This document shows, one piece after another, positions 6,203 through 22,727 of a DNA stretch of 64,000 nucleotides. The notes below the pieces were generated by a model. It ran no database searches and was not told the origin of the DNA. It worked only from the letters and a program-made list of their open reading frames with translations. The stretch lies in assembly GCF_003790525.1 (NCBI RefSeq), contig NZ_CP033635.1, one strand, 5' to 3'. The DNA comes from Escherichia coli. GTDB taxonomy: Bacteria > Pseudomonadota > Gammaproteobacteria > Enterobacterales > Enterobacteriaceae. A program made the translations under genes and the position numbers. The first letter of the stretch is position 1; every line of letters starts with the position of its first letter.

Positions 6203-7936
6203 AAAGTGGCTCTTCCTCAACCTAGGTGAAGATTTTCATGCCAGTGGACTCATTACCCTCCGCCTAAGTAGTTCAAGTCCGGCTCGACCATACATCTGGC
6301 GTATCAGCACCTTCAGGCGATTTACATGACCTTCGACAACACCAGTACTCCAGCGACTGCTGATTGCCTCACATATAGCCGCAGCATCAGCTTCCATCCC
6401 CGCAGCTACGCACCGAAGTTCTGCTGAGCCGCTTTCGTGGACCCGAGTGAACCAGCTGCTTAGCTGTGATTTATTTTAGGTTTTCAGAATACGGTAGAAC
6501 TCGAGTACCAGTTGCTGCGCTATTTTCAACTCCGGTTCTTTTTCACACATCAGACTAATAAATCGGAAAGCATAATTTTCTCCACCCCTGATTATTCTCC
6601 AGGGCATCAACCAGCGGCTTACCCGGGACACTGAAGGAAGTCTTGCGGCAGTAGTAACCGGTGGGATCCAGCCTTTATGCCATTTGGCAACAGCATCCCT
6701 GACGATGGTTTCACTGCCTGTAACCCCCCTGGCCACCATTTCCCGCCATATCCGGCCGGAGTTATAATTACCACATTCTCGTTGCTCTTTTAACCACTCC
6801 CTCCATGGGTCCAGAAGCCCTCGCTTTGGAGGCCTGGTTGACATTTCAGGGAATGTTCCTGAACCCACCCAGCGACTGACTGTCACTCGCGACAGGCCTG
6901 TAATACGGGATATTTCCCTGAAACTACATCCCTTGTTATGCAGGGCCATAACCTCTGTCCAACGCTGATGCCGTTTTTTGCGGATGTGCTGTTTAAGGCG
7001 TTCCAGACGACGGAGCGATGCTACAGGCACAGATATTTCTGGCTCAGGTGATTTCTTCAGTGATAACTCTCTGACAACAAGACGTATCAGAGGCATATGT
7101 CTGTACATCATTCGTTCAGGCTCATCACCAATATTTTTTAGCAGGTGCCATCGATCGGCCACCTGTCTGGCCTGAGGTGCACCTTCACGTGCTGCTGTCG
7201 CATAGACTCCACTGCGATCACGCGAGACAACCTGTATTTCCGGATATTTTCTGAACCAGGTCGCCAGCGTACGCTGATCACGGCCGGGAAGCAGGACGAG
7301 GGGACGGTGAGTATCAGGATTGACTATTAACATACCGCAGCAGTGGCCCCGATGCCACGCCCACTCATCAATACCGACATGAGGCGCGCCTGACTGTTTC
7401 GTCTCCGGGGTATTGATAAGCCTGCGAAGAAGAGTATCAGCACTGCAACGGAGACCCACTGCCGTTGCAGCCCGTTTTCCAGCCTCACCTCCAGCTATTA
7501 ATCCCAGTTGACATTGTTAATTTTGTAACGCCTGTGAAGACTGCTGGTGTGAACTGGCGAAGGGAGCAAGCGACTCGGCAAAAATTTTACGTGAACAAGC
7601 CGGGTTACGGCAGTACCAGTGGCGGACGGAAAATACAAGCCATAGCGTCTGCCCTGAGCAGGGTAGATGCTGTATCCGGCGCCGACGACAACTATGAACA
7701 GAGTCGCTACGCTTAAAGCATTCAGGACATTGTGCTGTTTTGCGTTTTCCGTGGAGATGGAGGGTTATACCGTCAGAGCTAATAATTTGTCGACTGCATC
7801 GCCATCCGCAAGGTAACTGTAGAAGTGTCTTAAGAGAGTGCATTGCGTTGCCCATAACTTAAAACAGCTTAGATCCTTGTTCGCCAGAAAGTTTCATCCA
7901 TTTTCTTCCACCCAGGTTGCGGAAGAACCACTTTTC
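6203..7936 (-). mobile_element. ISL3-family insertion sequence (~1.73 kb) with ~30-bp imperfect terminal inverted repeats
   Basis: Left end aaaagtggctcttcctcaacctaggtg versus reverse complement of right end aaaagtggttcttccgcaacctgggtg (3 mismatches); internal ISL3-type transposase. Confidence 0.6.
6215..7855 (-). pseudogene. ISL3-family transposase, disrupted by at least two frameshifts
   Basis: Zn-finger N-terminus (7855-7517), DDE core GIDEWAWHRGH...SRDRSGVYATAAREGAPQARQVADRWHLLKN (7459-6476), and C-terminal STGVVEGHVNRLKVLIRQMYGRAGLELL in a third frame (about 6300-6215). Confidence 0.6.
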
Positions 7937-8138
7937 ATCCGTCGTTGACAGATGTGAAGTATGCGGGAGAAAAAGTGAATATCTAACTGTAATAACTCAG
8001 ACCGGTACGAGTACTCGGGACGTCTACAATCATTCAGGGCAAAGTGCTAAAATTTCTCTATCCCGGGATGCCCCTACCAACGCAGCACTCCCGGAGATAT
8101 CATTACAGCTCTGCAACTGATTTCCGCGACTGAACCGC

Positions 8139-8546
8139 TCAGTTCCTATCCTTCCAGTTGCCCTCCTGCCCCCCCTCCCTGCTGTATACCCCGGTACCAC
8201 AACTCGGGCAGCACTTTTCCCCCTCATAATTTTCGTCACACATCACACAAAACCACTTTCTCACCTTCACCGTATAATCCGGAACCGTCATACCCTGCAG
8301 ATGCAAACGACGGGCCTCTTTCTCTGCCGGGTCAAGCCAGGTGCATCGCAGCAGGATTTTCTCAGCGACAGTCATCTGGTCATGTTCAAACCACGGTGGT
8401 TGTCCGTCATTGCCCCGCTGAAGTGTTAACGGGCATCCACAGGACACACAGCACAAAACGTCCTGGCGGTTGTGCTTCGCTGCTTCTTTCGCCGTAACAA
8501 AATGGCCTTTGCTGTCATTCGCCATATAACAGTTCAGAATTCGCAT
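8139..8546 (-). CDS. Cys-rich zinc-ribbon protein, hypothetical (paralog of upstream gene)
   Basis: CxxC pairs and a PWFEH motif shared with the adjacent gene; aggagg RBS just upstream of the ATG at 8546; start uncertain. Confidence 0.45.
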   Translation of the reverse strand: MRILNCYMANDSKGHFVTAKEAAKHNRQDVLCCVSCGCPLTLQRGNDGQPPWFEHDQMTVAEKILLRCTWLDPAEKEARRLHLQGMTVPDYTVKVRKWFCVMCDENYEGEKCCPSCGTGVYSREGGQEGNWKDRN

Positions 8547-8941
8547 ATTTCCTCCTGAGTTGTCCGGGGAATACTGAATCCTCCGGTCTGGCAGTGTGTG
8601 CAGTACCGCTCCCCATAATAATCGTGGTGACATTGTCTGCAGTGCCAGCTGGCTTTACGCACCACGGGTAAGGCATCCGGTACGAATTGCTGCAGACGTT
8701 TAATCAACTGTATTTCTCTGCGCTCCGGCCTGACATAAGGGCACTGTTGACCGTGCTCTGTCAGCCTGTCGTCAGTGTGTTCAAACCAGGGAAGTTCAGT
8801 GTCGTATTGCGGATGGTATCTGAGTGCACTGCCACACAAGTGGCAGGTGTAGTTAGCATAAGGTGCGGCCTGTGCAGTACGGGCGCCCGTCAGACGTCCG
8901 TTGCCATCAAGAGCGATAAAGGATTTTGCGTACATAGTCAT
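8534..8941 (-). CDS. Cys-rich zinc-ribbon protein, hypothetical
   Basis: 135-aa ORF with CHLCG, CRQCH, CTHCQ pairs and a PWFEH motif. Confidence 0.5.
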   Translation of the reverse strand: MTMYAKSFIALDGNGRLTGARTAQAAPYANYTCHLCGSALRYHPQYDTELPWFEHTDDRLTEHGQQCPYVRPERREIQLIKRLQQFVPDALPVVRKASWHCRQCHHDYYGERYCTHCQTGGFSIPRTTQEEICEF

Positions 8942-9194
8942 ATTCCTCAGCCGCCAGACGACACGCAGGCAACAGCCGTCCCGGTACGGGCAGCGTGGTC
9001 AGGGTGTGAATGGCGGTTCAGTTAAAATCTGGACTGGAGTTTGGGTAAAGCAGGCTGGTTGCTGTTACAGCACTGTGGTTGTCACACAATGGAACACTGA
9101 CGTAAAAAACAGTCAGTGGGCGAGTGGATACATCGTTGCCGCCAGACAACAACCCATACTTTTGGTTTGCCGGGTATTGGCGCGCCAGTCGTGC

Positions 9195-9764
9195 TCAACT
9201 CCGGCTACAGCCAAAATTGCGCTCACCGGTGCAGTGAGCTTTGGTATGTTCCTTCGCCAGATAGTCAGCACGTTCCAGCACCTGCTGAAAGCCAGTGTCA
9301 TCATCGCGTTCCAGCCACACCGCCGGCCAGGCCGGAAAATGCACCAGCGTGGCATGGCACCCGACATCCACTCCCAGGGCACTGCACCACGCCTGTTTAA
9401 TCATCCCGGCCAGTGATCCCGGAGCACGGTAATCACCGGCACGACACCAGGTATCCCGGTTAACCAGCAGCATCAGGTGATAGTGTTTTTTACCTTTGCA
9501 CTCCCCAAACTCCCGGGCCCAGACGTAATGCAGGGTTGTGGGATGCACGCGTTTACCTTCCCGATGCTTACGTTTCTGGTAAGCGTCGATTCGGGCTTTC
9601 AGGGCATTGATGAAGCGGGATATCACAGCTGCGTCCGTTGCTGCCGGTACATCCGGGAAACGCAGGTCAACCCGCAATGCCGTCAGGCGGGGATGAACAT
9701 TCAGTGCGTGCCGCACCGTCTCACGAATACGTTGCTGCCAGAAGGGGTTGTATTTGTAGGTCAT
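9195..9764 (-). CDS. YfjJ/YagK-family (inovirus Gp2-like) prophage protein
   Basis: N-terminus MTYKYNPFWQQRIRETV... recalled as the YfjJ/YagK family of CP4-type prophages; ATG at 9764 preceded by ggag; an upstream GTG at 9800 is an alternative start. Confidence 0.6.
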   Translation of the reverse strand: MTYKYNPFWQQRIRETVRHALNVHPRLTALRVDLRFPDVPAATDAAVISRFINALKARIDAYQKRKHREGKRVHPTTLHYVWAREFGECKGKKHYHLMLLVNRDTWCRAGDYRAPGSLAGMIKQAWCSALGVDVGCHATLVHFPAWPAVWLERDDDTGFQQVLERADYLAKEHTKAHCTGERNFGCSRS

Positions 9765-9963
9765 GGTTAAATCTCCGTATGGTTCATACGGAATAGCCAC
9801 GTCGTAAAAAATGCGCAGAGTCCCTGAAGTGACCTCCGGCAGGACACTGTCTCAGGCACTCTGTGATAACCCGAACGGTCGTCTCCGGACTGACGGTTGA
9901 ATTTTCAGCGTTGTTTTTTTAATGTAAAAAACCGGTTACGGGTAAGGCTGTGAGGAGGGAGTG

Positions 9964-10164
9964 ATGGTGATACGCAAAAAGAAGTGCAGGGACTGTGGAA
10001 ACGCGATTACTCATAATACAGTGTGTTGCCCGTATTGTGGTTCTGTCGACCCCTTCGGCTATTACCGGAATACAGACCGTATCGTTACCATACTGCTGGC
10101 ACTGATTATTGTGGTCCTGCTGACTACTGTCAGCGTCAGTGTGTATATACTGTGTAGCTGGTGA
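9964..10164 (+). CDS. Small zinc-ribbon protein with C-terminal transmembrane helix
   Basis: CRDCG...CPYCG zinc ribbon followed by hydrophobic IVTILLALIIVVLLTTVSVSVYIL; strong SD gaggaggga immediately upstream. Confidence 0.4.
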   Translation: MVIRKKKCRDCGNAITHNTVCCPYCGSVDPFGYYRNTDRIVTILLALIIVVLLTTVSVSVYILCSW

Positions 10165-11117
10165 GATAACGGTTCATGTATCCCCTGAGCTGACAGTGTA
10201 CCGGGTATATTAAGCGTAACCGACAGGTTCTCCTTCATACCATATTAAATTTTTCCAGGTATTGCCGCTGCCTTATTTCGTCCCATACAGGAAAACTCGT
10301 CTGGGTTTCTGACAAATACGCGAAACTCACAGCCCCTCAATATCAACCACACGCTGTAAGCCGGTAATACCTGAAAATCAGCCTATTACCGCCCGCGCCT
10401 CCGTTACCGAACGCTCAGGTGACCAGACTGAAGCCCAGCACGCACTCGTAAAATTTGCGGTCAGTTCCGTCAGTCAGTGGGCAACCGCAGAGTTACGGGC
10501 TTCCAGGTCCACAGGAGTGAGTCTATAACGCGTGTGGGAAATCATTTTTTCTGGCGTTGACAGAACGCCTTACGGGCTGCTACTTACCCGGTGTCCCGCA
10601 ATACAGCCTTAGTGTTCCGTTATCGGGGATCCGGACGCACCGCAACAACCGGGGAAGTATTTCTGGTTAGAGCTGTGTCAAGAGGGATTTCTCAGCCCCT
10701 CACTCACCGGCTCAGTCTCAGGGCAGAAGCATTAATACACTCAGTTCATGTCTTATACAGGAATGGGCATAGGGGGAGCTGGCGTGTCACTGCTGATTTT
10801 ACGCATCAGCGTTCATGTATCTGCACTCTGATACAGAATGCTTCACAGCGCTCTGTTACCGGAGAGATTTACTCTCTTAGGTTATTCTGGCAAATCCTTT
10901 ACGTTACTCTCTGATGACTTCTTATATTTATAATACCAATCAGACAACCTTATCCCATCGGTGATATCAGTCTCCTGCTCGCCAGGAACGGGCTGACTCA
11001 CTGTAACCACCTCCGAAAACAACTCTGCAATTATCAGAACGCCTGCTTCTCTCCCTGTCCTCACGAAAACTATCCCCTCTTTATCGCGCGTGCGTGCGGA
11101 AGCATCTTTTCGCAACA

Positions 11118-11130
11118 CCCCCCCCCCCCC
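11118..11130. repeat. Homopolymeric C13 tract
   Basis: 13 consecutive C residues, about 165 bp upstream of the alpA-like start. Confidence 0.9.
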
Positions 11131-11294
11131 GGGATTCCGCTACGGCTCTGCCATCGCAATCCCCCCGTTTATCTCCGGACAGCCACATTCCCGATTATTT
11201 TTTACGTTTCTCCCCGGTTGTTATGCCGGTGAAGGTGGCGCGCTGTTTTCATGACCACACCGGCTGGTTTAACAACATCCGGAGGAACATTCTC

Positions 11295-11501
11295 ATGGCT
11301 ACCCCAGTTTCGCTGATGGATGACCAGATGGTCGACATGGCGTTTATCACTCAACTGACCGGCCTAACCGATAAGTGGTTTGACAAACTCATCAAAGATG
11401 GGGGCTTTCCTGCGCCCATCAAAATGGGGCGCAGCTCCCGCTGGCTGAAAAGTGAAGTGGAAGCCTGGCTGCAGGCGCGTATTGCACAGTCCCGTCCGTA
11501 A
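11295..11501 (+). CDS. alpA: AlpA-family prophage transcriptional regulator
   Basis: 69-aa product MATPVSLMDDQMVDMAFITQLTGLTDKWFDKLIKDGGFPAPIKMGRSSRWLKSEVEAWL matches the AlpA/Phage_AlpA HTH family; ggagg RBS 8 nt upstream. Confidence 0.7.
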   Translation: MATPVSLMDDQMVDMAFITQLTGLTDKWFDKLIKDGGFPAPIKMGRSSRWLKSEVEAWLQARIAQSRP

Positions 11502-11579
11502 TTTTTAACCACTAACCCTTCGCCCACAGCAGACGCAATCTCCGGCCTGCCGGCGGCGCTCTGCTGCCTGTTATCCCCC

Positions 11580-12197
11580 GTGAGGAATATGAAAATGAAA
11601 CAACAGTATCAGACCCGTTACGAGCTGCTCCATGAAAACTACCAGAAATGGCTGACCGGCTTCACCCGGCACGCCGTATCATGGGGCGTGTGTCATCCGA
11701 ATATCTACTATTTCCATAATCTGACGCCCGGGTGGGTGTCATTCAATGGCGAAAAACCGGAGATTGCCATCGTTCCCCAGAGTCTGCACCGGCTGATTTA
11801 TGGTCCGGACAAACGGAGCTCCCCGTCCCTGGATGATGATCTGGTGGTGAATTTATGCACCAGCGAACACCTGCTGGTTCATCATCCGATGCTGGAAGGG
11901 ATCCTGCTGTCTGAATGTGAGCGCCTGAAGCAACATTCTCTGGCAAACAAACTGATCAGCCTCTTCCGTCAGTTTGGCGGCACGGAGTTACGTCTCAAAC
12001 TGGTCTGGCTCTGCTGGCTTGACTTAATGACCGGAAACAGCCTTGACGACTGGACGAAAAACCTGAAACACAAATCAGAAAAAGATCTGGAGCAATGGAT
12101 CATTGCACGTCAGGGTCAGAGTGAACCACTGACAAATCTGATGGATCAGTACGTGCTTATGGCATACCGTACATCGGTTGATGCCGCTCACAGTTGA
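11580..12197 (+). CDS. Hypothetical prophage protein
   Basis: 205-aa ORF 78 bp downstream of the alpA-like gene, same strand; no family recognised; start ambiguous among several Met codons. Confidence 0.5.
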   Translation: MRNMKMKQQYQTRYELLHENYQKWLTGFTRHAVSWGVCHPNIYYFHNLTPGWVSFNGEKPEIAIVPQSLHRLIYGPDKRSSPSLDDDLVVNLCTSEHLLVHHPMLEGILLSECERLKQHSLANKLISLFRQFGGTELRLKLVWLCWLDLMTGNSLDDWTKNLKHKSEKDLEQWIIARQGQSEPLTNLMDQYVLMAYRTSVDAAHS

Positions 12198-12739
12198 TGT
12201 CTGAGAACCACAGGGCTGGCAGCAGAAAACCAGCCCTGTGGTAAAATACAGTAATAGCGGCGTACATCAGGCACGCCGCTCACTCGTCCACAGATCATAT
12301 ACGTCATTATACTGCGCGATAACGGAGGGCTTCAGCACCCGGTCATTTCTGAGCGGGTATGAATACCATTGATGATGCGAAGCAGCCACGTGCAGAAACG
12401 TTCTTCACAACCAGGTGCCTCCATCTTCACTGCAGTCTGAATGTGCCGGCTTGTTATCCACCAGAAATGGTATGCTCCGGTACATGCATACCCCGGAGAC
12501 TATAAACGCACTGAATCATAGCCTCCCACCTCAGCAGGAGGCAGTCAGCTTTCAGGCGGAAAAACGTTGCAGTTAAAGATCGTGAGAATCGCTGTTTCGT
12601 TGCATAGCAACCCGAACAGTTGTAGTGAAACATTTTACCTGCATCAGCACATGGTCAGGCGCCGTCTGTATGGCGTGGAATACTGATGTTTCGGCTGATG
12701 GCAAGCCTCATTCTGTACTGACCCCAAAAAGTTGGACAG

Positions 12740-13591
12740 TTAAACACGAGGCATATAGGTCTGATTCCGATATTCAATTGGAGTCAGACTTTTTAATTTC
12801 AGGCTAATTCTTCTGCTGTTGTAGTATTCAATATATTCCGTAACAGCATCCTTCAGTTCGCTTATATTACTGAACTCATCAAGATAAAAACACTCCGACT
12901 TTAAGGTTCCAAAGAAACACTCCACCACAGCATTATCCAGACAATTGCCTTTTCTGGACATGCTTTGTTTAATACCATGTTCTTTAAGAATATTTTGATA
13001 TTTTCTCATACGATACTGCCATCCCTGGTCAGAGTGCAGAACAGGATGCTCGTGAGGATTAAGCTTTTTGAATGCCTGATCGAGCATATTCTCAACCATG
13101 TTCATCACTGGTCTTTCCGAAAGGCTGTAAGAAATAACTTCGTTGTTGAAGAGATCTATTACTGGAGACAAATACAGCTTGCGCCCATTGACTGCAAATT
13201 CAGTAACATCGGTAACCCACTTCTCGTTTGGCCGCGTAGCCTTGAAATCTCTTTGGAGAACATTAGGGGCGGTTTGCCCTACCTCTCCTCTGTAAGAGCG
13301 GTATCGCTTGACCTTAATCGCTGCTTTAAGTGAGAGGGTTCCCATCAGGCGCTGAACAGCTTTATGGTTAATCTGTTTCCCTTCTCGATGAAGAGACAGC
13401 GTTACCCTACGGTATCCGTATCGGCCTCTATTCTCGTGATAAATCTCACCAATACGCTTTTTAACGTCCGCATACTTGTCAGGCTTGCTGAGAGCCTTTA
13501 GATGGTAATAAAACGTACTGCGCGGTATCTCCGCAGCCCTGAGAAGCTCATCAAGAGGATAAAACTGCCTTAGCTCGTTGAGTACTTTCAC
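12740..13591 (-). CDS. insK: IS150 transposase OrfB (InsK)
   Basis: 283-aa IS3-family DDE transposase; overlaps insJ by 4 bp as expected for the -1 frameshift fusion. Confidence 0.9.
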
Positions 13592-14109
13592 TTTTTCGTG
13601 GGATGAGCTAAGGCTTTCAGCTTTTTTAGATACATAAGCCGCGTTTCAAGAAATCGAACTTGCCTTTCAAGATCCTCAATACGTCGGTCTTTTGACAGCT
13701 CCAATGCTGATGCCGCTTTTTCTGGATCAACTGATATTGCAATGTTTCTTTTGGTGCCAATCTTGAGCGCGCGTAAACCAGCTTCTCCGCGCTCTTCATA
13801 AACCTTCAGCCACCTGGCTACAGAACCACTACCAGCAAGCATAAAGTGAGCAGCAGCCTGATTAAGGGACATGTGCTGCTCGATCACAGCTTTCACGACC
13901 TTAATACGCAACTCTGGATCAGCACTAACACCTTTAGGTTTGGGAATTAAACCTTTTTCTCCATGTTTTTCATAGAGGGCAACCCATGTCCTGACCTGGG
14001 TTCGGGGGACACCAAAACGTGCCGAGATGATCCTGTAACCATCATCAGTAGTGAAGTAGTGATTCACGACTTCAAGGCGCTTTTCAAAAGGGTATTTTGG
14101 CTTTGACAT
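13588..14109 (-). CDS. insJ: IS150 OrfA (InsJ)
   Basis: 173-aa product MSKPKYPFEKRLEVVNHYFTTDDGYRIISARFGVPRTQVRTWVALYEKHG... matches InsJ of IS150 as recalled. Confidence 0.9.
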   Translation of the reverse strand: MSKPKYPFEKRLEVVNHYFTTDDGYRIISARFGVPRTQVRTWVALYEKHGEKGLIPKPKGVSADPELRIKVVKAVIEQHMSLNQAAAHFMLAGSGSVARWLKVYEERGEAGLRALKIGTKRNIAISVDPEKAASALELSKDRRIEDLERQVRFLETRLMYLKKLKALAHPTKK

Positions 14110-14439
14110 ATCAGGGGCTATTCCATTTCATCGTCCAACAAAATGGGTGCAGTACATTCTCTGTGGAAACAGGGGCGCGCATTAGCTTCTCAACCAGAGA
14201 GTGTCACAAAGACAAATATTGCTGAAAATCGCATTCATCGTTCAGGCGTGAATGCCCGGAGACAAAAGCCGCTGTCCACACAGTCCCCCTCTGACCTGAA
14301 CAAAAAGCATACACACAACAGGCTCACCTGACCCCGAAAAACCATAACTTCAGCAATACCAGTGACACCAGCACGTTACCTCAGTGCCACATCTTCAGAC
14401 CGCGATCAATCTGAAATGTGACTATCGGGGCAATATCCC

Positions 14440-14720
14440 TGCTTTGTGGTACACGATAACCAGAAAACATCCCCTGAACCGCCAGCCAGAAAGACTGGCC
14501 ACAAAAGGGGTAAGCTGAAATCGTTTATGGATTACATCGACATATGCCTGGCAGAGAATGTCCGGAATGACGAGGTTATCTTTGCGGAGATTAAGGCAAT
14601 GGTATACGGGCCGACGTTCCATGCCGCGTTACTACATTCAGCCCGGACGTAAAATGCGCCCGTCAAAAAGAACGGTTCGCTTCGAAACTCAGCCAGGATA
14701 CCACCTCTCCGCCACACCCG
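14440..14720 (+). pseudogene. IS21-family istA 5' remnant
   Basis: Frames give EPPARKTGHKRGKLKSFMDYIDICLAENVRNDEVIFAEIKAMVYG and RYYIQPGRKMRPSKRTVRFETQPGY, matching the IstA N-terminus with a frameshift and loss of the rest. Confidence 0.5.
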
Positions 14721-16024
14721 GGAAGAAGTTGATATGGTGGTTGCCGGACAACAGCGCTCCTGGATTGACTGCTGCATCACTCAACCACGCTGAATATCAA
14801 AGGAGAGCGTTACCGGTTAAAAGAGAAACGTAAAGCTGTGGTGATGACCCAAAACGCAACGCCTGTCAGTGAGGATGAAATGGTGAAAAGCGGACAGCAT
14901 CAGTAACGGAAGTATCTTAGCGGGTACGAAAATGGCAGGATCGTGACATTGACAGAATATCTCCTGATCATCCTGAATGACTGCAGTTGCTGTAGAAAAG
15001 TAAGCTGTCTCCACCCACGGCACCACTTAACAGGCATTCCGTAACTTCCCCCAGACTTACTATGACGCATTATCGGTGCACTGAAAACGGGAGAGTGCGC
15101 TTAAAACCGCAGACCGCATGCGGGTGTTACTGCATGACAGTCTGGCCGTATTGTGAGATGTCGGCAGGAACCGATGTCCGCGCAGGGGGGAACTTCCTGC
15201 AGTACCTGACGCTTCAAATGGTATTAACCGTAGGGTGTTGTTGGTTCCGGATCGCGGAAATGGGAGCACAGGTCTGCTACGGGGTGTACCTCTGACAGTA
15301 AATCCGGCTCGCTCATCTGACAGCCTCTCTCCCGGAAAAGACCAAAAATGAGATCGTCTCCTCAACAGCAGAGAAGAGGTCTTGACAGACAGGCTACATT
15401 GCATACGATTTATGAAGAAAAAGACAGCAAATATGGAGGTTATAGCGGAGAATACCCTACGAAATTCCTATGAAAAACGATTGAAAAAAATATCAAATTC
15501 GATTCGTTTTTATATGCTTTTTGGGAGCGTGGCGATGACGAACTGTTGCATGTGCAGAGGAGAATGCACCCGGAAGCACCAGAATCATCCAGAAAGGCAG
15601 AACGATTACGCATCAAACCAGGAGACAGCAATATCAAGGTAATATACTGATTTAAAATGAATTTACAGCAATACGTGAAAACATTTTTTACTTAAAGGAG
15701 ACAGATGCGCTGAAGAGAGTGCAGGTATTTTTATATAAAAATGAGAAGTTTACGGGATGTATATCCGGCACACTATGACCGGAGAATATCAGTCAAGCTT
15801 AAAAAGACAATAAATACAGTGAGTTAAATACACAGAGAAAACGTAGTATCAGAGGGTACATCTTACAACAGAGACTGAATTTCCGGTTTTTCATAACCGG
15901 CGCATTCCGGAAAGTGCAGGCGGCCCGGAGGTTTTCTGACGCCACTACCTGGTAGATTGTTCTGTACATCATGTACGGAGGTTTTTGTTTGCTTTTTTAA
16001 AATCTGCAAATGTGAGAAAAGCAG

Positions 16025-17188
16025 GTGAGGTGTATTGTGGGAAAGGAACTGGATGATATCTGCACCAGCTGTCCGTATATCGATACTGTAAAACGGCACA
16101 AACAACAGCTCGGTGCCATAGAGGAATATACACAGTGGTTAAAAAAAGAACCACGGGCATCTTATTTTTTTCTGTTCCAGCTGTATACCCGCATTCACAA
16201 TACATTTTTCTCCCAAAAGCAACAACTCCCGTTCACTCCCGGTGGCACTCACTGCCCGGAACCTGATGTCACCCTTCGGGACTTAACGCTTTCCCCTGGC
16301 TACCACAGTGATTATGCCCCTCAACCCATTCCGGAGATGGACAGTTCTGCTGTTGTTCCCCCAACTAATGAAAACACCTCGCCTCCGGAAGATACTCCCG
16401 ACAACACTCCGGCCGGAGGCAATACCGGACAAGCGGAAAAGACCAGAAACGCAGGACTCACACCCATTCCTGAAAAACGTTCAGGAATGCCCCCGGAACA
16501 TCTGCGGTTTGCCACGGGGTTTCCATCGCAACCGAAGATTGCCGGTCCCAGAGAAAAGCCGATGCGCACCGTGCATCCGGATAAAATCTACCGTGAAATT
16601 ATATGGTTCTGCTCCAGTTACCTGCTGAAATCCGGACCAGAGGCTACGAGGACGATTATCAACTCAGTATTCTCTGAATGGGCCAGCATAAACAATGATT
16701 ACCCCTCCCCCTTTTCGTGGGTGGACAGCAGGGACAGTGAACAGTGTGACTGGTTATGGAACGCCATGCAGATCCGGTGTGTGGGAACCCCGCTGAATCC
16801 CCTTACCCCGGAGCAGAAATACTGGTTTGCCTGCGCCACGTTTGATAACTGGGAGGGCTGGAATGAGCAACAGGTACAGTTTTTACTGGAAAGTAATCCC
16901 AGACGGAACAGAGCGAAGTTTACGCAGGTCTCCTTCCAGGCCCCCAGGATTCAGCATAAAGCGATTCTTCTTGATGAGCTGAAAAGTGCCCGGGAGCAAC
17001 AAAAAAGGCGTGATGAACGTGCTGATGGTTCCGTCCCTCTGAAACTGTCCGGAAAAATCCACAAACAGCTTGAAAGTATTGCCCGAAGTCGTGGTGTCCT
17101 CCCAAAAAAACTGCTGAATGAAATGATTGAGCAGGCGTACCATGATTTGGTGGCAACCAGGCAGAACAGCCAAATCGATTCCAGATAA
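16025..17188 (+). CDS. Hypothetical protein with Pro/Thr-rich linker and possible C-terminal ribbon-helix-helix segment
   Basis: 387-aa ORF with GTG start (uncertain); low-complexity PPTNENTSPPEDTPDNTPAGG; C-terminal KLSGKIHKQLESIARSRGVLPKKLLNEMIEQAYHDL resembles an RHH DNA-binding motif. Confidence 0.4.
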   Translation: MRCIVGKELDDICTSCPYIDTVKRHKQQLGAIEEYTQWLKKEPRASYFFLFQLYTRIHNTFFSQKQQLPFTPGGTHCPEPDVTLRDLTLSPGYHSDYAPQPIPEMDSSAVVPPTNENTSPPEDTPDNTPAGGNTGQAEKTRNAGLTPIPEKRSGMPPEHLRFATGFPSQPKIAGPREKPMRTVHPDKIYREIIWFCSSYLLKSGPEATRTIINSVFSEWASINNDYPSPFSWVDSRDSEQCDWLWNAMQIRCVGTPLNPLTPEQKYWFACATFDNWEGWNEQQVQFLLESNPRRNRAKFTQVSFQAPRIQHKAILLDELKSAREQQKRRDERADGSVPLKLSGKIHKQLESIARSRGVLPKKLLNEMIEQAYHDLVATRQNSQIDSR

Positions 17189-17213
17189 TTTCAGACAGAT
17201 ATTATTTCCGTGA

Positions 17214-17256
17214 ATCCCCCGCCACCTTTCCGGTGCGCGGGGTTTTGTCTTTTTTC
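17214..17256 (+). terminator. Putative rho-independent terminator
   Basis: GC stem (cccgc ... gcggg) followed by ttttgtctttttt, just after the 387-aa ORF. Confidence 0.45.
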
Positions 17257-17271
17257 ACCGGGAATACATGT

Positions 17272-18144
17272 ATGAATCCGTCTGATGCCATTGAGGCAAT
17301 TGAAAAACCGCTCTCCTCCCTGCCTTACTCACTTTCCCGTCACATCCTGGAACATCTGCGCAAACTCACCAGTCACGAACCCGTGCCTGGCATTATGGGT
17401 AAAAGCGGGGCCGGTAAATCCTCACTCTGTAATGCGCTGTTTCAGGGGGAGATCACCCCGGTCAGTGATGTTCACGCCGGCACCCGGGAAGTGCAGCGCT
17501 TCCGTCTGAATGGCCATGGTCACAGCATGGTTATCACTGACCTGCCCGGGGTGGGCGAGAGCCGGGACAGGGATGCAGAGTATGAAGCCCTGTACCGTGA
17601 CATTCTGCCCGAACTGGACCTGGTACTGTGGCTGATTAAAGCCGATGACCGTGCCCTGTCTGTGGATGAGTATTTCTGGCGACACATCCTGCACCGGGGA
17701 CATCAGCGGGTACTGTTTGTGGTGATGCAGGCCGATAAAACGGAGCCCTGCCATGAATGGGATATGGCCGGTATTCAGCCTTCTCCCGCACAGGCACAGA
17801 ACATTCGCGAAAAAACGGAGGCGGTATTCCGTCTGTTCCGGCCCGTACATCGGGTTGTTGCCGTATCGGCCCGCACCGGCTGGGAACTGGATACGCTGGT
17901 CAGTGCGCTCATGACAGCACTTCCCGACCATGCCGCCAGTCCCCTGATGACCCGCCTGCAGGACGAGCTGCGCACGGAATCTGTCCGCGCTCAGGCCCGT
18001 GAACAGTTTACCGGTGCGGTGGACCGGATATTTGACACGGCGGAGAGCGCCTGTATTGCCTCTGTTGCACGCACGGTTCTGCGTGCCGTCCGTGACTCGG
18101 TGGTCTCTGTTGCCCGCGCGGTATGGAACTGGATTTTCTTCTGA
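17272..18144 (+). CDS. YeeP/YfjP/YkfA-family prophage GTPase, apparently intact
   Basis: P-loop GKSGAGKSSLCNALF and G3 DLPGVGES; family recalled from CP4-44/CP4-57/CP4-6; start set at the ATG giving MNPSDAIE (ORF extends upstream to a GTG). Confidence 0.8.
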   Translation: MNPSDAIEAIEKPLSSLPYSLSRHILEHLRKLTSHEPVPGIMGKSGAGKSSLCNALFQGEITPVSDVHAGTREVQRFRLNGHGHSMVITDLPGVGESRDRDAEYEALYRDILPELDLVLWLIKADDRALSVDEYFWRHILHRGHQRVLFVVMQADKTEPCHEWDMAGIQPSPAQAQNIREKTEAVFRLFRPVHRVVAVSARTGWELDTLVSALMTALPDHAASPLMTRLQDELRTESVRAQAREQFTGAVDRIFDTAESACIASVARTVLRAVRDSVVSVARAVWNWIFF

Positions 18145-18261
18145 ACCCGGTGGTGATGTACCAGGCTGTTGTTACAGATTTTTAACTCCATGAAAACACT
18201 ATGCAAACGCAGCCATACCCGGGTTGTCCCCTTGCGTTGTGTTTCTCAAGTTAATAGAATG

Positions 18262-18305
18262 CATCGATCGTTACTATCATATCGATCGTTATAAACGATC
18301 GTTTG
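18262..18305. promoter_or_regulatory. Cluster of three CGATCG-core repeats upstream of the dynamin operon (putative operator)
   Basis: catcgatcgtta (18262-18273), atcgatcgtta (18281-18291), and the 12-bp perfect palindrome aaacgatcgttt (18294-18305); 57 bp upstream of the dynamin start. Confidence 0.3.
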
Positions 18306-18361
18306 TAGTAAATGACCTCCTCCGTGGTTGTCATGAAAATGCGTCTTAGGAAGGTTAAATA

Positions 18362-20758
18362 ATGCACGAAAAGAACATCGCCCTGCTTTGTGATGAAGCC
18401 GACCGACTTTTGCAACTGAACATTAATCTGCTCCGGCAAATGGTTGAGGAGCCAGATGTGTTATCTGACAGTAAGAACGAAAACAGACTGCTTTTTGATA
18501 AACAGAAAGCACTGAAAAGAATTGAGGAGCTGGAGGGCGAACAAATCAAAACCGCCCGCAGGGAGATGGTGCTGGCTGTTGTCGGCACGATGAAAGCAGG
18601 CAAATCAACCACCATCAACGCCATTGTGGGGCAGGAAATTCTGCCTAACCGTAACCGCCCCATGACCTCTGTACCGACGCTCATCCGCCACGTTCCCGGA
18701 AAAACTGAGCCGGTTCTCCATCTGGAACATATTCAGCCTGTCCGCAATTTATTAATCACACTGCAGGAAAAACTCGCCACCCCGGCAGGACAGCAGGTCG
18801 CACAGACCCTGCAGCAAACCGGGGATACCCGCGAACTGCTGGATATTCTGACGGATGATGGCTGGCTCAAAAATGAATACCACGGGGAGGAGGAAATCTT
18901 TACCGGACTGGCATCGTTAAACGATCTGGTTCGTCTTGCTGCGGCAATGGGGACTGAATTTCCTTTTGATGAATACGCAGAAGTGCAGAAACTGCCGGTG
19001 ATCGACGTGGAATTCAGCCATCTGGTGGGGATGGATGCATGCCAGGGAACACTCACACTGCTGGATACCCCCGGCCCTAATGAGGCCGGACAACCGCAGA
19101 TGGAAGTGATGATGCGGGATCAACTGCAGAAAGCCTCTGCGGTTCTGGCTGTGATGGATTACACCCAGATGAACTCAAAAGCGGATGAAGACGTCCGTAA
19201 AGAGCTTAATGCCATTGCTGACGTATCAGCCGGCCGCCTGTTTGTACTGGTCAATAAATTTGATGAGAAAGACCGCAATGGCGATGGGGCAGATGCCGTA
19301 CGCCAGAAAGTTCCGGCAATGCTGAACAGCGATGTGCTGCCCGCCTCCCGCGTTTATCCCGGATCCTCACGCCAGGCATACCTGGCTAACCGTGCGCTTC
19401 ATGAGTTACGGAAAAACGGAACCCTTCCTGTTGATGAAGCCTGGGTCGATGATTTTATCAGAGGTGCCTTCGGTTGCATGAAAAAAGAATACGTCTGTAA
19501 AGACAGTGAACTGGCAACTGAAGGGGCGACAGACCTGTGGGAAGGCTCACTTATCGATCAACTGATAACGGAAGTCATACAGAGCTCACATTCCAGAGCT
19601 GCGGCACTGGCGGTTGACTCTGCCGCCGCAAAACTGATGCAGAATGCAGAAAATATCAGTGAATACCTGTTGTTACGCCATCAGGGGCTACAGCAAAGCA
19701 TTCAGTCACTGCAGTCGCATATCACCAGCCTGCTTGCGGATATCCGGGAAATCGCGGACTGTCAGGAGCAGATGACCACTGATGTCAGAATGGCCATGGA
19801 GGAGATCGATACTAAAACCCGGGAATTACTGACGGGGGTCTGCACCTCACTGGAAGAGGAGCTGAATGACTATTTCAGAAGCGGTAAACGCAAAGAACAG
19901 CAAATGCTGGAGGAAGAAGACGCAGAACAACGAAGGTCTCAGTCCGGATTATGGGGGAAAATTTCTCAATGGTCCGGTATCAACAACCAGGGCCGGGAGG
20001 ATTACAGGAAACGAGATTTTGCCCCGGACAGCCCCGAAATAAAATTCAGTGATCGCAGGGAAGCCCTTGAACTGATGACGCAAATCGAATCGACCGTGAC
20101 CAGCCTGCACCGTGAGGCTGAAGCACAGTTCCGGCCTGAGCTGGAGAAAATCGTCAGCGGGATTGAAACAGGTTTTCGTGGCACGGCCCTGTACGCCACA
20201 GAAAACATTGCCGGTCGCATCAATGCCCGCCTGGAGGATGAGGGCTTTACCGTAAAAATCAGTTTTCCGGCAGTCAGCCAGTTACAGACCCGGCTCGCGG
20301 TAAAAATAAATCTGAGTGCGCTTATGGAGGAAAGAACGGAGACCGTCACCCGTCGCCGTCGGCAGAGTGGCGTATGGGGAACCGTTTGTCGATGGTTTGG
20401 CACCAGTGACCTGGGCTGGGAAAACTATGACGAGGATGTGAGTCGCAGCGTGATCAATATCAACAAGGTCAGAGAGGAAGTTATGTCACTGACCCGGGCA
20501 TATTTCGGGGAGCTGCAGGCATCCATTGAGCAGGATATTAACCAGCCCGTCCGCCAGGAAATCGATGCCTTTTTCTGCGCATTCAGGGAGAAAGTTGAAC
20601 AACTGCGTAACACGCTGATTCAGAGCTCTGAAGATCATAAACGCGATCAGCAGGCGCAGGAACGGCTTACCGGGCGACTTCAGGCATTAAATGAAAGGGT
20701 TCCTGAGCTCATTACTGACAGTAAGGCGCTGAGGGAAGAGCTGGAGACAATGCTGTGA
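18362..20758 (+). CDS. Bacterial dynamin-like GTPase, CrfC/YjdA-like
   Basis: 798 aa; G1 GTMKAGKST, G3 DTPGPNE, G4 NKFD; N-terminal block REMVLAVVGTMKAGKSTTINAIVGQEILPNRNRPMT matches E. coli CrfC as recalled; long helical C-terminal stalk; RBS aggaagg. Confidence 0.9.
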   Translation: MHEKNIALLCDEADRLLQLNINLLRQMVEEPDVLSDSKNENRLLFDKQKALKRIEELEGEQIKTARREMVLAVVGTMKAGKSTTINAIVGQEILPNRNRPMTSVPTLIRHVPGKTEPVLHLEHIQPVRNLLITLQEKLATPAGQQVAQTLQQTGDTRELLDILTDDGWLKNEYHGEEEIFTGLASLNDLVRLAAAMGTEFPFDEYAEVQKLPVIDVEFSHLVGMDACQGTLTLLDTPGPNEAGQPQMEVMMRDQLQKASAVLAVMDYTQMNSKADEDVRKELNAIADVSAGRLFVLVNKFDEKDRNGDGADAVRQKVPAMLNSDVLPASRVYPGSSRQAYLANRALHELRKNGTLPVDEAWVDDFIRGAFGCMKKEYVCKDSELATEGATDLWEGSLIDQLITEVIQSSHSRAAALAVDSAAAKLMQNAENISEYLLLRHQGLQQSIQSLQSHITSLLADIREIADCQEQMTTDVRMAMEEIDTKTRELLTGVCTSLEEELNDYFRSGKRKEQQMLEEEDAEQRRSQSGLWGKISQWSGINNQGREDYRKRDFAPDSPEIKFSDRREALELMTQIESTVTSLHREAEAQFRPELEKIVSGIETGFRGTALYATENIAGRINARLEDEGFTVKISFPAVSQLQTRLAVKINLSALMEERTETVTRRRRQSGVWGTVCRWFGTSDLGWENYDEDVSRSVININKVREEVMSLTRAYFGELQASIEQDINQPVRQEIDAFFCAFREKVEQLRNTLIQSSEDHKRDQQAQERLTGRLQALNERVPELITDSKALREELETML

Positions 20759-21660
20759 CTTCACCATTTATTCAACAAATTGCTGATAACCGGGTATGTC
20801 AGGTACTCACCTGTCTTCCTGAAAAATTTGTGGTTGATTTCGCAAACGGAATCGATGTTGCACAGGAGCATATCCGCACGGCCGGAGAGCGCACGTTCTT
20901 CCGGCGTTTAAAAGAGGGGCTGACCGGCGAAGGCGCTGCACGGCAGAATGCCATCAATGCGTCGCTTGCACAGGGCGTTGAGGCGTCCCTGCGCTGGCTG
21001 ACGGAGATGACAACGTCACTTGCCACCACAAACTACGCGATTACCCGGGTAAACGACAGGGTCAGTTCACTGGTCAGTGATACAGCCAGGCTGGCGCATT
21101 ATTCCGCAGATACGCGGGAGCAGTTACTCACCCTGGCCGATCAGGTTCACCATAAACTGAATCATCTTGAAGAAAAACTCCACCGTGTTGACCAGGTTCA
21201 GCGGGCGCAGTTACATCTTGAGCAGATATTCTCATGGTGGAGCGCCGGGCGATATGCGTCATTTTCCCCTGCCGGACGTTGTTATGTGGCACTTGAAGAG
21301 CTTCGCTGGGGCGCGTTTGGTGATGTGATACGTCAGAGCGAAACAGGCCAGGTTAACCAGCTACTGGATATTCTCAGACATAAAGCATTAACGCAGATGG
21401 CACAGGAGAGTGGCGGTAGTGCAACCGTGCGTCTGAACACTCTGGACTGGCTTGGTGGTCAGGGCCGGGAGCAGGCAGATAACGAGTGGCATGACGCGAT
21501 TAACTGGCTGGGAGACTGGTGCAGTGAAGAGCAGCATCCGGTGATCTGGTCAACCACGCAGGCTGCAGAACACTTACCGGTTCGCATGCCTCGCCTCTGC
21601 TCTGCAGAACGCCTCTCTGAAAGTATGGTCGATGAAATATTTCAGAAGGGGGCTGCATGA
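20755..21660 (+). CDS. Dynamin partner protein (YjcZ-like, by synteny with crfC-yjcZ)
   Basis: 301-aa ORF; GTG start overlaps the dynamin stop (GTGA); mostly helical; family assignment rests on position, not recalled sequence. Confidence 0.7.
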   Translation: MTSPFIQQIADNRVCQVLTCLPEKFVVDFANGIDVAQEHIRTAGERTFFRRLKEGLTGEGAARQNAINASLAQGVEASLRWLTEMTTSLATTNYAITRVNDRVSSLVSDTARLAHYSADTREQLLTLADQVHHKLNHLEEKLHRVDQVQRAQLHLEQIFSWWSAGRYASFSPAGRCYVALEELRWGAFGDVIRQSETGQVNQLLDILRHKALTQMAQESGGSATVRLNTLDWLGGQGREQADNEWHDAINWLGDWCSEEQHPVIWSTTQAAEHLPVRMPRLCSAERLSESMVDEIFQKGAA

Positions 21661-22727
21661 GTACAGAAATGAAAACGGGGCTGGTGCTGTCCGGTGGCGG
21701 GGCGGTGGGCGCTTATCAGGCGGGAGTGGTTAAGGCACTGGCAGAGTGTGGTACACAGATCAGCATGGTTTCAGGGGCCAGCATTGGCGCATTCAATGGT
21801 GCCATTATCGCGGCCTCTACCGATCTGTCAGAAGCTGCCGTACGCCTGGAGGCGCTCTGGGATCATCTGGGGAATAATCAGGTGCTGTCGGTAAACAGAT
21901 TGGTTTACTTTTCATTGCTGAAAAAATTGTTCCAGGCAATGAACCTCTGCCAGATCCCCGGACGTGCAGGAGCACTGCTTACGACGCTTCTTCGCCATAT
22001 ATCGACAATCAACGGGTTTGACAATCTGATGGCTCAGCCGTTGTTGTCAGATGAGCCCCTGACAGCGCTGATGGATCATTATCTTGATACTGATGCTCTG
22101 GCAGACGGGCTACCGCTGTATGTGTCGCTGTACCCCACAGAAGGGGGCATGCAGGATATTATTGACTGCATTCGTGCTGAACTGGGTGTCGGAACCACGA
22201 AAAACGCCGTTTTTCAGCATATCCAGAGCCTGCCCCGCGGACAGCAGAAAGAGGCTCTGCTTGCGTCAGCCGCGCTGCCCCTGCTGTTCCGTCCCCGTGA
22301 GGTTCAGGGGACAATGTTCGGTGATGGTGGTATGGGAGGATGGCGAAATATGCAGGGAAATACCCCTGTGACGCCTCTGGTCGATGCCGGATGCAATATG
22401 GTGATTGTGACGCATCTGAGTGACGGTTCTTTATGGGATCGCCAGGCTTTTCCGGACACCACAATCCTTGAGATCCGTCCCCGGAAAAGGCTGAAATATG
22501 CAGGTGATGGTGGCAACAGCGGCGGTCTGCTCAGTTTTACATCGGCACATACCGACGCCTGGCGTCAGCAGGGCTATGAAGACACGATGCTGGCGATGGA
22601 GCATATCCGGAAACCGCTGGCAGCACGTCAGGCACTGACCCGGTCAGAGGCGGTATTGCAGAAAAGCCTGGATATAACGGAAGAGGCAGATTTGGCACTG
22701 AGAAACGCGATGGCCCGGATTAAATAA
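21657..22727 (+). CDS. Patatin-like phospholipase
   Basis: 356 aa; Gly-rich oxyanion SGGGAVGAYQAG, lipase GxSxG as GASIG, catalytic Asp in FGDGGM; ATG overlaps the upstream stop (ATGA). Confidence 0.85.
   Translation: MSTEMKTGLVLSGGGAVGAYQAGVVKALAECGTQISMVSGASIGAFNGAIIAASTDLSEAAVRLEALWDHLGNNQVLSVNRLVYFSLLKKLFQAMNLCQIPGRAGALLTTLLRHISTINGFDNLMAQPLLSDEPLTALMDHYLDTDALADGLPLYVSLYPTEGGMQDIIDCIRAELGVGTTKNAVFQHIQSLPRGQQKEALLASAALPLLFRPREVQGTMFGDGGMGGWRNMQGNTPVTPLVDAGCNMVIVTHLSDGSLWDRQAFPDTTILEIRPRKRLKYAGDGGNSGGLLSFTSAHTDAWRQQGYEDTMLAMEHIRKPLAARQALTRSEAVLQKSLDITEEADLALRNAMARIK

What the first reader, a model, noticed from the sequence alone, without database searches (positions are those of the whole stretch)
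8139..9764. Tandem paralogous zinc-ribbon proteins with a shared PWFEH motif beside a YfjJ/YagK-family gene
Two adjacent minus-strand ORFs share multiple CxxC pairs and a PWFEH motif, consistent with a tandem duplication of a zinc-ribbon module, immediately downstream of a YfjJ/YagK-family gene. Their function in CP4-type islands is unknown; they may be nucleic-acid binding.
Basis: seen in the sequence. Interest (0 to 1): 0.35.

Follow-up and report, generated by a model that had tools for sequence, protein, structure and literature searches.

The report
Paired zinc-finger genes in island core
Two neighbouring small zinc-binding genes in an E. coli genomic island are real, ancient paralogues from an already catalogued family of unknown function. 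They almost always travel with a Rep-like nicking-enzyme gene and the AlpA regulator, so they are an ordinary, uncharacterised part of the island's housekeeping module.

Summary
Window 8534-8935(-) (ZrA, 133 aa) and 8139-8546(-) (ZrB, 135 aa) are paralogues: 31% identity, BLASTP E=3e-15. Each has CxxC…PWFEH…C followed by W-CxxC-x9-CxxC. They lie directly downstream of a YfjJ/YagK-type gene (9195-9764). Both match Pfam DUF7828 + Zn_ribbon_11 and are identical to RefSeq "putative zinc ribbon protein" entries. The 2.4-kb block that carries them matches 3870 of 5426 complete E. coli genomes, so the family is catalogued but uncharacterised.

New here:
- The duplication is ancient. Every tandem pair found in other Enterobacterales genera has the same A-then-B order, usually with a 13-nt start/stop overlap.
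- 36 of 40 modules have a YfjJ-like gene upstream and 33 of 40 have AlpA. The upstream YfjJ-like gene nearly always keeps its HxH and Tyr motifs.
- The N-terminal half is homologous to the zinc finger of the competence nuclease CoiA (hhalign 91.6%), but there is no nuclease domain.
- dN/dS is about 0.2 for both types.
- The family was not found in phages, is rare on plasmids, and is absent from K-12's CP4 islands.

Best guess, at low confidence: ZrA and ZrB are non-catalytic zinc adaptor subunits for the island's Rep-like/AlpA excision-replication module. Nucleic-acid binding is untested. Interest is low to moderate.

The parts
8534..8935 (-). zrA: A-type small zinc protein (133 aa, identical to WP_000270974 'putative zinc ribbon protein'). 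It has a CoiA_N-like finger (residues ~1-65), a helix (72-84) and a C4 zinc ribbon (97-121). An alternative upstream ATG lies at 8941.
   Evidence: ORF and translation. Pfam DUF7828 E=2.8e-31 and Zn_ribbon_11 E=1.3e-9. RefSeq annotation. AF2 model pLDDT 80.7. hhalign to CoiA N-terminus 91.6%. dN/dS 0.21.
8139..8546 (-). zrB: B-type paralogue (135 aa, identical to WP_001221623 'zinc-ribbon domain-containing protein'). The start ATG at 8546 follows AGGAGG.
   Evidence: Pfam DUF7828 E=7.7e-31 and Zn_ribbon_11 E=7e-18. 31% identity to ZrA, E=3e-15. dN/dS 0.19.
8534..8546 (-). 13-nt overlap of the zrB start with the zrA stop, which implies translational coupling.
   Evidence: Sequence. The same 13-nt overlap occurs in eight other loci (L009, L013, L026, L032, L033, L043, L046, L057).
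9195..9764 (-). YfjJ/YagK-family ('inovirus Gp2 family') gene of Y1 type. It carries Rep-like motifs: R.DL, H106-Y-H108 (HUH) and Y180-LAK.
   Evidence: Pfam YagK_YfjJ_C E=1.1e-47 and weak REP_ORF2-G2P. Motif conservation in 51 homologues. 67% identical to the upstream Gp2-family gene (Y1) of the Klebsiella plasmid module L062.
8936..9194 (-). 259-nt non-coding spacer between the YfjJ-like gene and zrA. Most other islands carry alpA at this position; no alpA remnant is present here.
   Evidence: tblastn with the Klebsiella plasmid AlpA found nothing in the spacer. No minus-strand terminator-like site was predicted in the whole scanned interval, 7800-11600.
9901..9928 (-). Sigma-70-like promoter match (TTTACA-16-GAAAAT) upstream of the YfjJ-like gene. 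It is a candidate promoter for a yfjJ-zrA-zrB transcript.
   Evidence: Consensus scan only, and the number of hits is not above the shuffle expectation. This is weak evidence.
11295..11501 (+). alpA (AlpA-family HTH, 68 aa). In this island it lies 1.5 kb away on the opposite strand instead of between the YfjJ-like gene and zrA.
   Evidence: Translation. RefSeq 'helix-turn-helix transcriptional regulator'. jackhmmer AlpA set.

Best explanation
ZrA and ZrB are two co-expressed paralogous small zinc proteins.

Shown:
- Each is built from an N-terminal CoiA_N-like finger (CxxC…WFEH…C), a helix and a C-terminal C4 zinc ribbon.
- Neither has any catalytic domain.
- They are the distal genes of a conserved island core module whose usual order is YfjJ-like HUH/Rep-type gene, then AlpA, then ZrA, then ZrB. 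A degenerate second YfjJ-like copy sometimes follows. The module sits at the boundary between the conserved island genes and the variable cargo.

Inferred:
- The two proteins are made in fixed ratio through translational coupling and act together, probably as a hetero-oligomer.
- They act as zinc-dependent adaptor or specificity subunits for the island's excision/replication (or mobilisation) machinery. They would either recognise a DNA structure at the site where the Rep-like protein acts, or bridge that protein to a partner.
- The island context points to rolling-circle-type nicking by the YfjJ-like protein, under AlpA control, after excision.
For: Domain make-up: Pfam DUF7828 + Zn_ribbon_11 for both proteins. 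Twelve invariant columns across 40 members (M1, C31, C34, F51, H53, W97, C99, C102, G108, C112, C115, G118), with W50, E52 and C65 nearly invariant.

CoiA link: hhalign of the family profile against a real CoiA N-terminus gives 91.6% probability, E=8e-7, over 50 columns. CoiA is a structure-specific ssDNA endonuclease with a small N-terminal zinc finger (bioRxiv 10.1101/2024.02.06.579203).

Synteny: 36 of 40 Zr modules have a YfjJ-like gene within 2.5 kb upstream on the same strand, and 33 of 40 have AlpA. The same holds for very divergent members from Morganellaceae and from metagenomes.

The partner looks catalytically competent: 36 of 38 YfjJ-like genes upstream of Zr keep HxH and Tyr.

Pairing: every one of 12 distinct tandem pairs is ordered A then B, usually with a 13-nt overlap. 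A natural fusion of two family units exists (P0202).

Selection and position: dN/dS is about 0.2. The module is core rather than cargo, because the cargo downstream differs between islands: AbpAB in K-12, SMEK/CTD10 in L003, KwaA and type I R-M in L064.
Against: No direct evidence for DNA binding or for any protein contact:
- pI is about 7 and few basic residues are conserved.
- An A-linker-B AlphaFold model gave pTM 0.48. The rise in pLDDT for ZrA residues 61-100 could simply come from the different alignment.

The Zr genes are not obligatory partners:
- A-type and B-type genes each occur alone in some islands, so a heterodimer cannot be obligatory.
- K-12 YfjJ and YagK have no Zr partner, so the Rep-like protein does not need Zr.

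Nuclease or nickase activity of YfjJ-like proteins has not itself been demonstrated in anything I could find.
Confidence: 0.35

Rival explanations
1. ZrA and ZrB are zinc-finger transcription factors. They would work like the small zinc-binding activators Ogr of phage P2 and Delta of satellite P4, switching on island, cargo or helper-element genes together with AlpA.
For: They share an operon with AlpA, a transcriptional activator, in 33 of 40 modules. They lie at the boundary with variable cargo. They are small zinc proteins that occur as pairs or fusions, which recalls P4 Delta being a covalent double Ogr (my own knowledge, not tested). They are carried in islands with P4-type integrases.
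Against: Ogr_Delta does not appear among the Pfam families listed at E<=1 (the full lists for ZrA and ZrB, and the 25 most-matched of 40 families for the 40 members). The cysteine spacing differs: CxxC-x9-CxxC here, against C-x2-C-x22-C-x4-C recalled for Ogr. The family has no PHROG match and no hit in 50,697 phage genomes. No operator-like repeat is conserved upstream of the module.
Confidence: 0.25
2. They are protein-binding zinc modules aimed at a host or competitor target. Examples would be an anti-defence factor, a host-takeover factor or an inhibitor of another mobile element. In that case they are unrelated mechanistically to the neighbouring Rep-like gene.
For: pI is neutral and conserved basic residues are few, and the tails are acidic. 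The same islands carry anti-restriction (KlcA/ArdB-like), RadC and DUF932 genes, which are typical of DNA-entry functions. The best-conserved part is a short N-terminal beta-hairpin, which could be a protein interface.
Against: Linkage is tight and same-strand to the YfjJ-like gene and AlpA, not to the anti-restriction block, which lies on the other side of the island and is usually on the other strand. There is no PADLOC match. The family is rare on plasmids, 33 of 72,556, although plasmids are where entry-phase anti-defence genes are usually abundant.
Confidence: 0.15
3. The pair is decaying baggage: non-functional or spurious ORFs kept only by linkage.
For: Many database entries are fragments, frameshifts or chimeras between the paralogues. 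K-12's CP4 islands have lost the genes entirely.
Against: dN/dS is about 0.2 for both types over dS>1. All zinc ligands are invariant across 40 diverse members. The ribosome-binding site and the coupled start are conserved. The block is present in 3870 of 5426 E. coli genomes.
Confidence: 0.04

Closest known systems
Pfam DUF7828 (PF25165) + Zn_ribbon_11 (PF11682, formerly DUF3279); RefSeq 'putative zinc ribbon protein'
   Same: ZrA and ZrB are full members. Both domains score far above the curated cut-offs, and the sequences are identical to WP_000270974 and WP_001221623.
   Different: Nothing differs in sequence. The family has no assigned function, and no paper in the searched library mentions it.
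N-terminal zinc finger of the competence nuclease CoiA (Pfam CoiA_N, PF25164)
   Same: There is a homologous stretch of about 50 residues: beta-strands, then F/Y-x-C-x-x-C, about 15 residues, then P-[HW]-F-[AE]-H (hhalign 91.6%). Weak direct Pfam hits occur in 10 of 40 members.
   Different: Zr proteins lack the PD-(D/E)xK nuclease domain and the CoiA C-terminal domain. They carry a C4 ribbon instead. They occur in Enterobacterales islands, whereas CoiA is restricted to Bacillota (abstract of bioRxiv 10.1101/2024.02.06.579203).
Phage P2 Ogr and satellite P4 Delta zinc-finger activators
   Same: They are small zinc-binding proteins of P4-integrase-type elements. Delta is a duplicated unit, as the Zr pair and the P0202 fusion are. 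This is an analogy from my own knowledge.
   Different: No sequence or profile similarity was detected. The cysteine spacing differs. Zr is absent from phage genomes.
Accessory DNA-binding proteins of HUH relaxases and Rep initiators (for example TraY, MobC and NikA-type relaxosome factors)
   Same: They are small, non-catalytic proteins encoded next to an HUH-type enzyme gene and co-expressed with it. This is an analogy in gene order only.
   Different: Those are ribbon-helix-helix or HTH proteins, not zinc proteins. No oriT or ori has been identified in this island, and no binding has been tested.

Membership tests
Pfam DUF7828 / Zn_ribbon_11 ('putative zinc ribbon protein') | Match to PF25165 above its gathering score (25.7 bits) | tested here: met
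   ZrA 107.5 bits, ZrB 106.1 bits.
Pfam DUF7828 / Zn_ribbon_11 ('putative zinc ribbon protein') | Match to PF11682 above its gathering score (24 bits) | tested here: met
   ZrA 38 bits, ZrB 64.4 bits. All 40 aligned members match both models.
Pfam DUF7828 / Zn_ribbon_11 ('putative zinc ribbon protein') | Zinc actually bound by the Cys/His ligands | not testable with these tools
   Only ligand invariance is available (C31, C34, H53, C99, C102, C112 and C115 invariant, C65 nearly invariant).
CoiA competence nuclease family | N-terminal CoiA_N zinc finger | tested here: met
   hhalign 91.6%, E=8.4e-7, ZrA 6-56 aligned to CoiA 2-54.
CoiA competence nuclease family | Central PD-(D/E)xK nuclease domain (PF06054) | tested here: not met
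   No PF06054 match. The protein ends after 133 or 135 residues, and the remainder is a helix plus a zinc ribbon.
CoiA competence nuclease family | CoiA C-terminal domain (PF25166) | tested here: not met
   No match.
Ogr/Delta zinc-finger activators | Match to the Ogr_Delta profile, and the C-x2-C-x22-C-x4-C spacing (spacing recalled from the literature) | tested here: not met
   Ogr_Delta is not among the Pfam hits listed at E<=1 (full lists for ZrA and ZrB; the 25 most-matched of 40 families for the 40 members). The spacing here is CxxC-x9-CxxC.
YfjJ/YagK ('inovirus Gp2') family (applies to the neighbouring gene, not to Zr) | Match to PF11726 above its gathering score; HUH-type motifs | tested here: met
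   162.5 bits against a cut-off of 25.8. HxH and Y.AK motifs are present and kept in 36 of 38 Zr-upstream homologues.
YfjJ/YagK ('inovirus Gp2') family (applies to the neighbouring gene, not to Zr) | Nicking or replication-initiator activity | not testable with these tools
   No solved structure was matched, and no experimental paper was found.
Known anti-phage defence proteins (PADLOC) | Match to a PADLOC model | tested here: not met
   Only one chance-level hit, E=0.035.

The most novel reading that the evidence does not exclude
The block Y1(HUH)-AlpA-ZrA-ZrB-(dead Y2) would be a so far undescribed replication or mobilisation engine of CP4/P4-integrase-type islands of Enterobacterales. In it, a hetero-oligomer of two CoiA-finger/zinc-ribbon proteins would select the DNA structure that the Rep-like enzyme nicks after excision. 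That would explain how these 'cryptic prophages' persist and move without phage or conjugation genes of their own.
Probability: 0.2. Interest if true: 0.55.

Novelty: already known. Interest (0 to 1): 0.28.

Why it matters
CP4-type islands are present in most E. coli and in many Enterobacterales, and they carry defence, virulence and resistance cargo. How they replicate, persist or move after excision is poorly understood.

The Zr pair belongs to the small set of genes that stay constant while the cargo changes. It is linked to the only enzyme-like core gene apart from the integrase. K-12's CP4 islands lack Zr, which may explain why nobody has studied it.

If Zr proteins prove to be specificity factors for a Rep-like nickase, the life cycle of these islands would become experimentally tractable. 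If they do not, they remain a well-conserved domain of unknown function. Either way, the sequence feature itself is already catalogued.

Tried and rejected
I replaced it with a degenerate DNA pattern spanning WFEH and the four ribbon cysteines.
- The AlphaFold-database fold library was unavailable.
- NCBIfam, PHROGs and PADLOC have no family for Zr.
- The A-linker-B single-chain AlphaFold model, used as a proxy for a heterodimer, was inconclusive: pTM 0.48 and no access to inter-chain error. A first alignment for it put the B-type rows on the A half and was discarded.
- I looked for remnants of the family in K-12 CP4-44 (yeeH/yoeG/yoeH), CP4-57 and CP4-6 and found none.
- There is no remnant of alpA, or of a second YfjJ-like gene, beside the window pair.
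- Rfam has no match in 7000-16500.
- The inverted repeat in the yfjJ leader is not conserved in other loci, so I dropped it as an operator or origin candidate.
- Literature searches on the Pfam names and the RefSeq product name found nothing functional.

Full report
**What is at the coordinates**

The span 8139-9764 holds three minus-strand genes.

- The first is a YfjJ/YagK-family gene at 9195-9764. It matches Pfam YagK_YfjJ_C at E=1.1e-47 and weakly matches REP_ORF2-G2P.
- After a 259-nt spacer comes zrA. The ORF runs 8534-8941. Homologues and PGAP start at the second ATG, 8935, which gives MYAKSF… and 133 aa.
- zrB follows. The 164-aa ORF 8139-8633 is over-extended. The true start is the ATG at 8546, behind AGGAGG, which gives MRILNCY… and 135 aa.
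- The zrB start overlaps the zrA stop by 13 nt.

The 2.4-kb block is 100% identical to E. coli SMS-3-5 and many other strains, and it is present in 3870 of 5426 complete E. coli genomes, with a median of 2 copies and up to 7. RefSeq calls the genes 'inovirus Gp2 family protein', 'putative zinc ribbon protein' (WP_000270974) and 'zinc-ribbon domain-containing protein' (WP_001221623). The island occupies the CP4-44 locus next to tmaR/yeeA.

**Is the similarity real?**

Yes. ZrA and ZrB align at 31% identity over 118 residues, E=3e-15. Both match Pfam DUF7828 (E~1e-31) and Zn_ribbon_11 (E=1e-9 and 7e-18).

In a 40-member alignment the invariant columns are M1, C31, C34, F51, H53, W97, C99, C102, G108, C112, C115 and G118. 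W50, E52 and C65 are nearly invariant. Each protein therefore has two metal sites:
- an N-terminal CxxC…(P)WFEH…C site;
- a C-terminal W-x-CxxC-x9-CxxC ribbon.

AlphaFold gives a confident model (pLDDT 80.7) with two small beta modules joined by a helix.

**Family size and range**

- A full HMM scan of 1.84 billion cluster representatives found only 285 clusters at E<=1e-3. Nearly all of the 150 listed are 50-170 aa, and none of the longer ones I read carries an informative fusion to another domain.
- A degenerate DNA pattern spanning WFEH and the four ribbon cysteines hit 54 loci in the collection of one genome per species. All are Enterobacterales (Yersinia, Budvicia, Hafnia, Serratia, Pectobacterium, Photorhabdus, Klebsiella, Salmonella and others), apart from two contigs of a Collinsella MAG that look like contamination.
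- Divergent named members are from Proteus and Providencia.
- There is no match in 50,697 phage genomes and matches in only 33 of 72,556 plasmids.
- NCBIfam, PHROG and PADLOC have no family for these proteins. No solved structure is related. No paper mentions the family.
- K-12's CP4-44, CP4-57 and CP4-6 contain YfjJ/YagK but no Zr gene or remnant. This probably explains the lack of experiments.

**Conserved context**

I built HMMs in the sandbox for Zr, YfjJ-like and AlpA proteins and mapped them on all loci.

- Of 40 Zr modules with at least 1.5 kb of upstream sequence, 36 have a YfjJ-like gene within 2.5 kb upstream on the same strand.
- 33 of 40 have AlpA, usually between the YfjJ-like gene and Zr.
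- 10 of 41 have a second YfjJ-like gene just downstream.

The fullest version is annotated on a Klebsiella plasmid: Gp2-family, AlpA, zinc ribbon, zinc ribbon (13-nt overlap), Gp2-type, DUF2913. Very divergent members keep the same neighbourhood.

Downstream of the module the genes differ from island to island:
- defence-like cargo and the integrase in L003;
- KwaA and a type I R-M system in L064;
- AbpAB directly after yfjJ in K-12, where Zr is missing.

Zr therefore belongs to the conserved core at the edge of the cargo region.

In the window, alpA lies 1.5 kb away on the other strand (11295-11501). An ISL3 pseudogene abuts the 3' side of zrB. tblastn finds no alpA remnant in the spacer and no second YfjJ-like remnant.

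**The partner gene**

In an alignment of 51 YfjJ-like proteins the conserved columns are R.DL, W..E, HxH…N and Y.AK…K. This is the three-motif pattern of HUH Rep/relaxase-type enzymes, which I recognise from established knowledge of that superfamily.

- 36 of 38 copies upstream of Zr keep both histidines and the tyrosine.
- 6 of 10 copies just downstream of ZrB have lost all of them.

The window copy is the intact upstream type: H106-Y-H108 and Y180-LAK, 67% identical to the Klebsiella plasmid Y1 and 27% to Y2. Activity of this family has not been shown experimentally in anything I could find.

**The pair is old and ordered**

In all 12 distinct tandem pairs the upstream gene is A-type (MYAKSF…) and the downstream gene is B-type (MR[IM]LKCY…). 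The pairs come from Escherichia, Siccibacter, Serratia, Hafnia, Budvicia, Superficieibacter, Trabulsiella, Yersinia, a Klebsiella plasmid and an Enterobacteriaceae MAG.

- Eight other loci share the window's 13-nt overlap. Budvicia has short gaps instead.
- Some islands carry only an A-type or only a B-type gene.
- One lineage has a 238-aa natural fusion of a ribbon-less unit with a full unit, placed after another Zr gene.
- Chimeras between the paralogues occur in E. coli.
- Median dN/dS is 0.21 for A-type and 0.19 for B-type at dS above 1.
- Within the A type, the N-terminal 53 residues are the most conserved part: 0.90-0.94 mean column identity, against 0.73 for the ribbon.

**Remote homology**

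Ten of 40 members give weak Pfam hits to CoiA_N. I retrieved real CoiA N-termini carrying PF25164 and ran a profile comparison. ZrA 6-56 aligns with CoiA 2-54 at 91.6% probability, E=8e-7.

CoiA is a structure-specific ssDNA endonuclease that resolves the transformation D-loop. It is described as having a small putative zinc finger N-terminal to its PD-(D/E)xK domain (bioRxiv 10.1101/2024.02.06.579203). Zr proteins have the finger but no nuclease domain, so they are not CoiA family members. The function of the finger in CoiA is not established either.

**How it most likely works**

Shown:
- two zinc-module proteins without catalytic domains;
- expression that is probably coupled;
- purifying selection;
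- near-obligate linkage to an apparently intact HUH-type gene and to AlpA;
- a core position rather than a cargo position.

Inferred: ZrA and ZrB act together as adaptor or specificity subunits of the island's excision-replication or mobilisation step. They would do this either by recognising a DNA structure for the Rep-like protein or by bridging proteins. I put this at about 0.35.

Points against:
- pI is neutral and few basic residues are conserved;
- single-type islands exist;
- YfjJ and YagK occur without Zr in K-12;
- the A-linker-B model was uninformative, with pTM 0.48.

Rivals:
- Ogr/Delta-like transcription factors working with AlpA, about 0.25. No profile similarity, and absent from phages.
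- Protein-targeting anti-defence or takeover factors, about 0.15. The genes are linked to the wrong side of the island and are rare on plasmids.
- Decaying baggage, about 0.04. Contradicted by dN/dS and by ligand invariance.

About 0.2 remains for something not considered here.

**Verdict**

In terms of novelty this is an already catalogued, functionally unknown family. The conserved Y1-AlpA-ZrA-ZrB(-Y2) module and the CoiA_N link are modest additions that make a bench test straightforward. Interest is about 0.28.

Noticed in passing
L062 8900-9466; also L009, L013, L031, L043, L046 (gene just downstream of ZrB): A second YfjJ-like paralogue often follows ZrB. In 6 of 10 cases it has lost the HxH and Tyr motifs, so it looks like a catalytically dead copy. 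In the Klebsiella plasmid module a DUF2913 gene follows it. The window island lacks this gene.
   Followed up: partly
window 9964-10164 (+): A small divergent ORF (67 aa from the GTG at 9961, 66 aa from the PGAP ATG at 9964; 'hypothetical protein' WP_001297900) has an N-terminal CxxC…CxxC zinc ribbon followed by a hydrophobic, probably transmembrane, stretch. It matches PHROG 38187 (unknown function) at E=1.6e-5. It sits between the yfjJ-zr genes and alpA.
   Followed up: partly
window 9816-9827 / 9852-9863: An inverted repeat with 12-nt arms (92% complementary, 24-nt spacer) lies in the leader between the promoter-like site and the start of the YfjJ-like gene. No equivalent repeat is conserved upstream of YfjJ-like genes in other loci.
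   Followed up: yes
window 6236-7855 (-): An ISL3-family transposase pseudogene with an internal stop sits near the 3' end of zrB, and a gamma-glutamyltransferase fragment lies beyond it. This insertion may have removed whatever originally followed zrB.
   Followed up: partly
window ~16025-22727 (+): A cluster runs: hypothetical protein, YeeP-like GTPase, dynamin-family protein (798 aa), RdcB-family protein, patatin-like phospholipase. It looks like a possible membrane-remodelling or defence-type cargo cassette.
   Followed up: no
L064 7612-8717 and L065 4565-5670 (metagenome contigs): Here there are three DUF7828 units in a row: one Zr gene, then a 238-aa natural fusion of a ribbon-less unit with a full unit. 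They follow AlpA and a 239-aa protein with no Pfam hit. KwaA and a type I R-M system lie downstream as cargo.
   Followed up: partly
E. coli protein clusters P0141, P0148, P0152, P0157, P0226, P0296: E. coli carries a third sequence type that starts MNGIKTGLGITPGEH… and occupies the B position. Several database entries are chimeras between A, B and this type, which suggests recombination among island copies within genomes.
   Followed up: partly
L014-L020 (Budvicia aquatica DSM 5075): This single genome carries at least seven loci with Zr genes, several of them A/B pairs. That is an unusually high island load.
   Followed up: no
window ~26.9-27.3 kb (SMS-3-5 record 1074716-1075089): In the SMS-3-5 copy of this island the cbtA toxin gene of the CbtA/CbeA pair is annotated as frameshifted, while the antitoxin gene cbeA is intact.
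   Followed up: no
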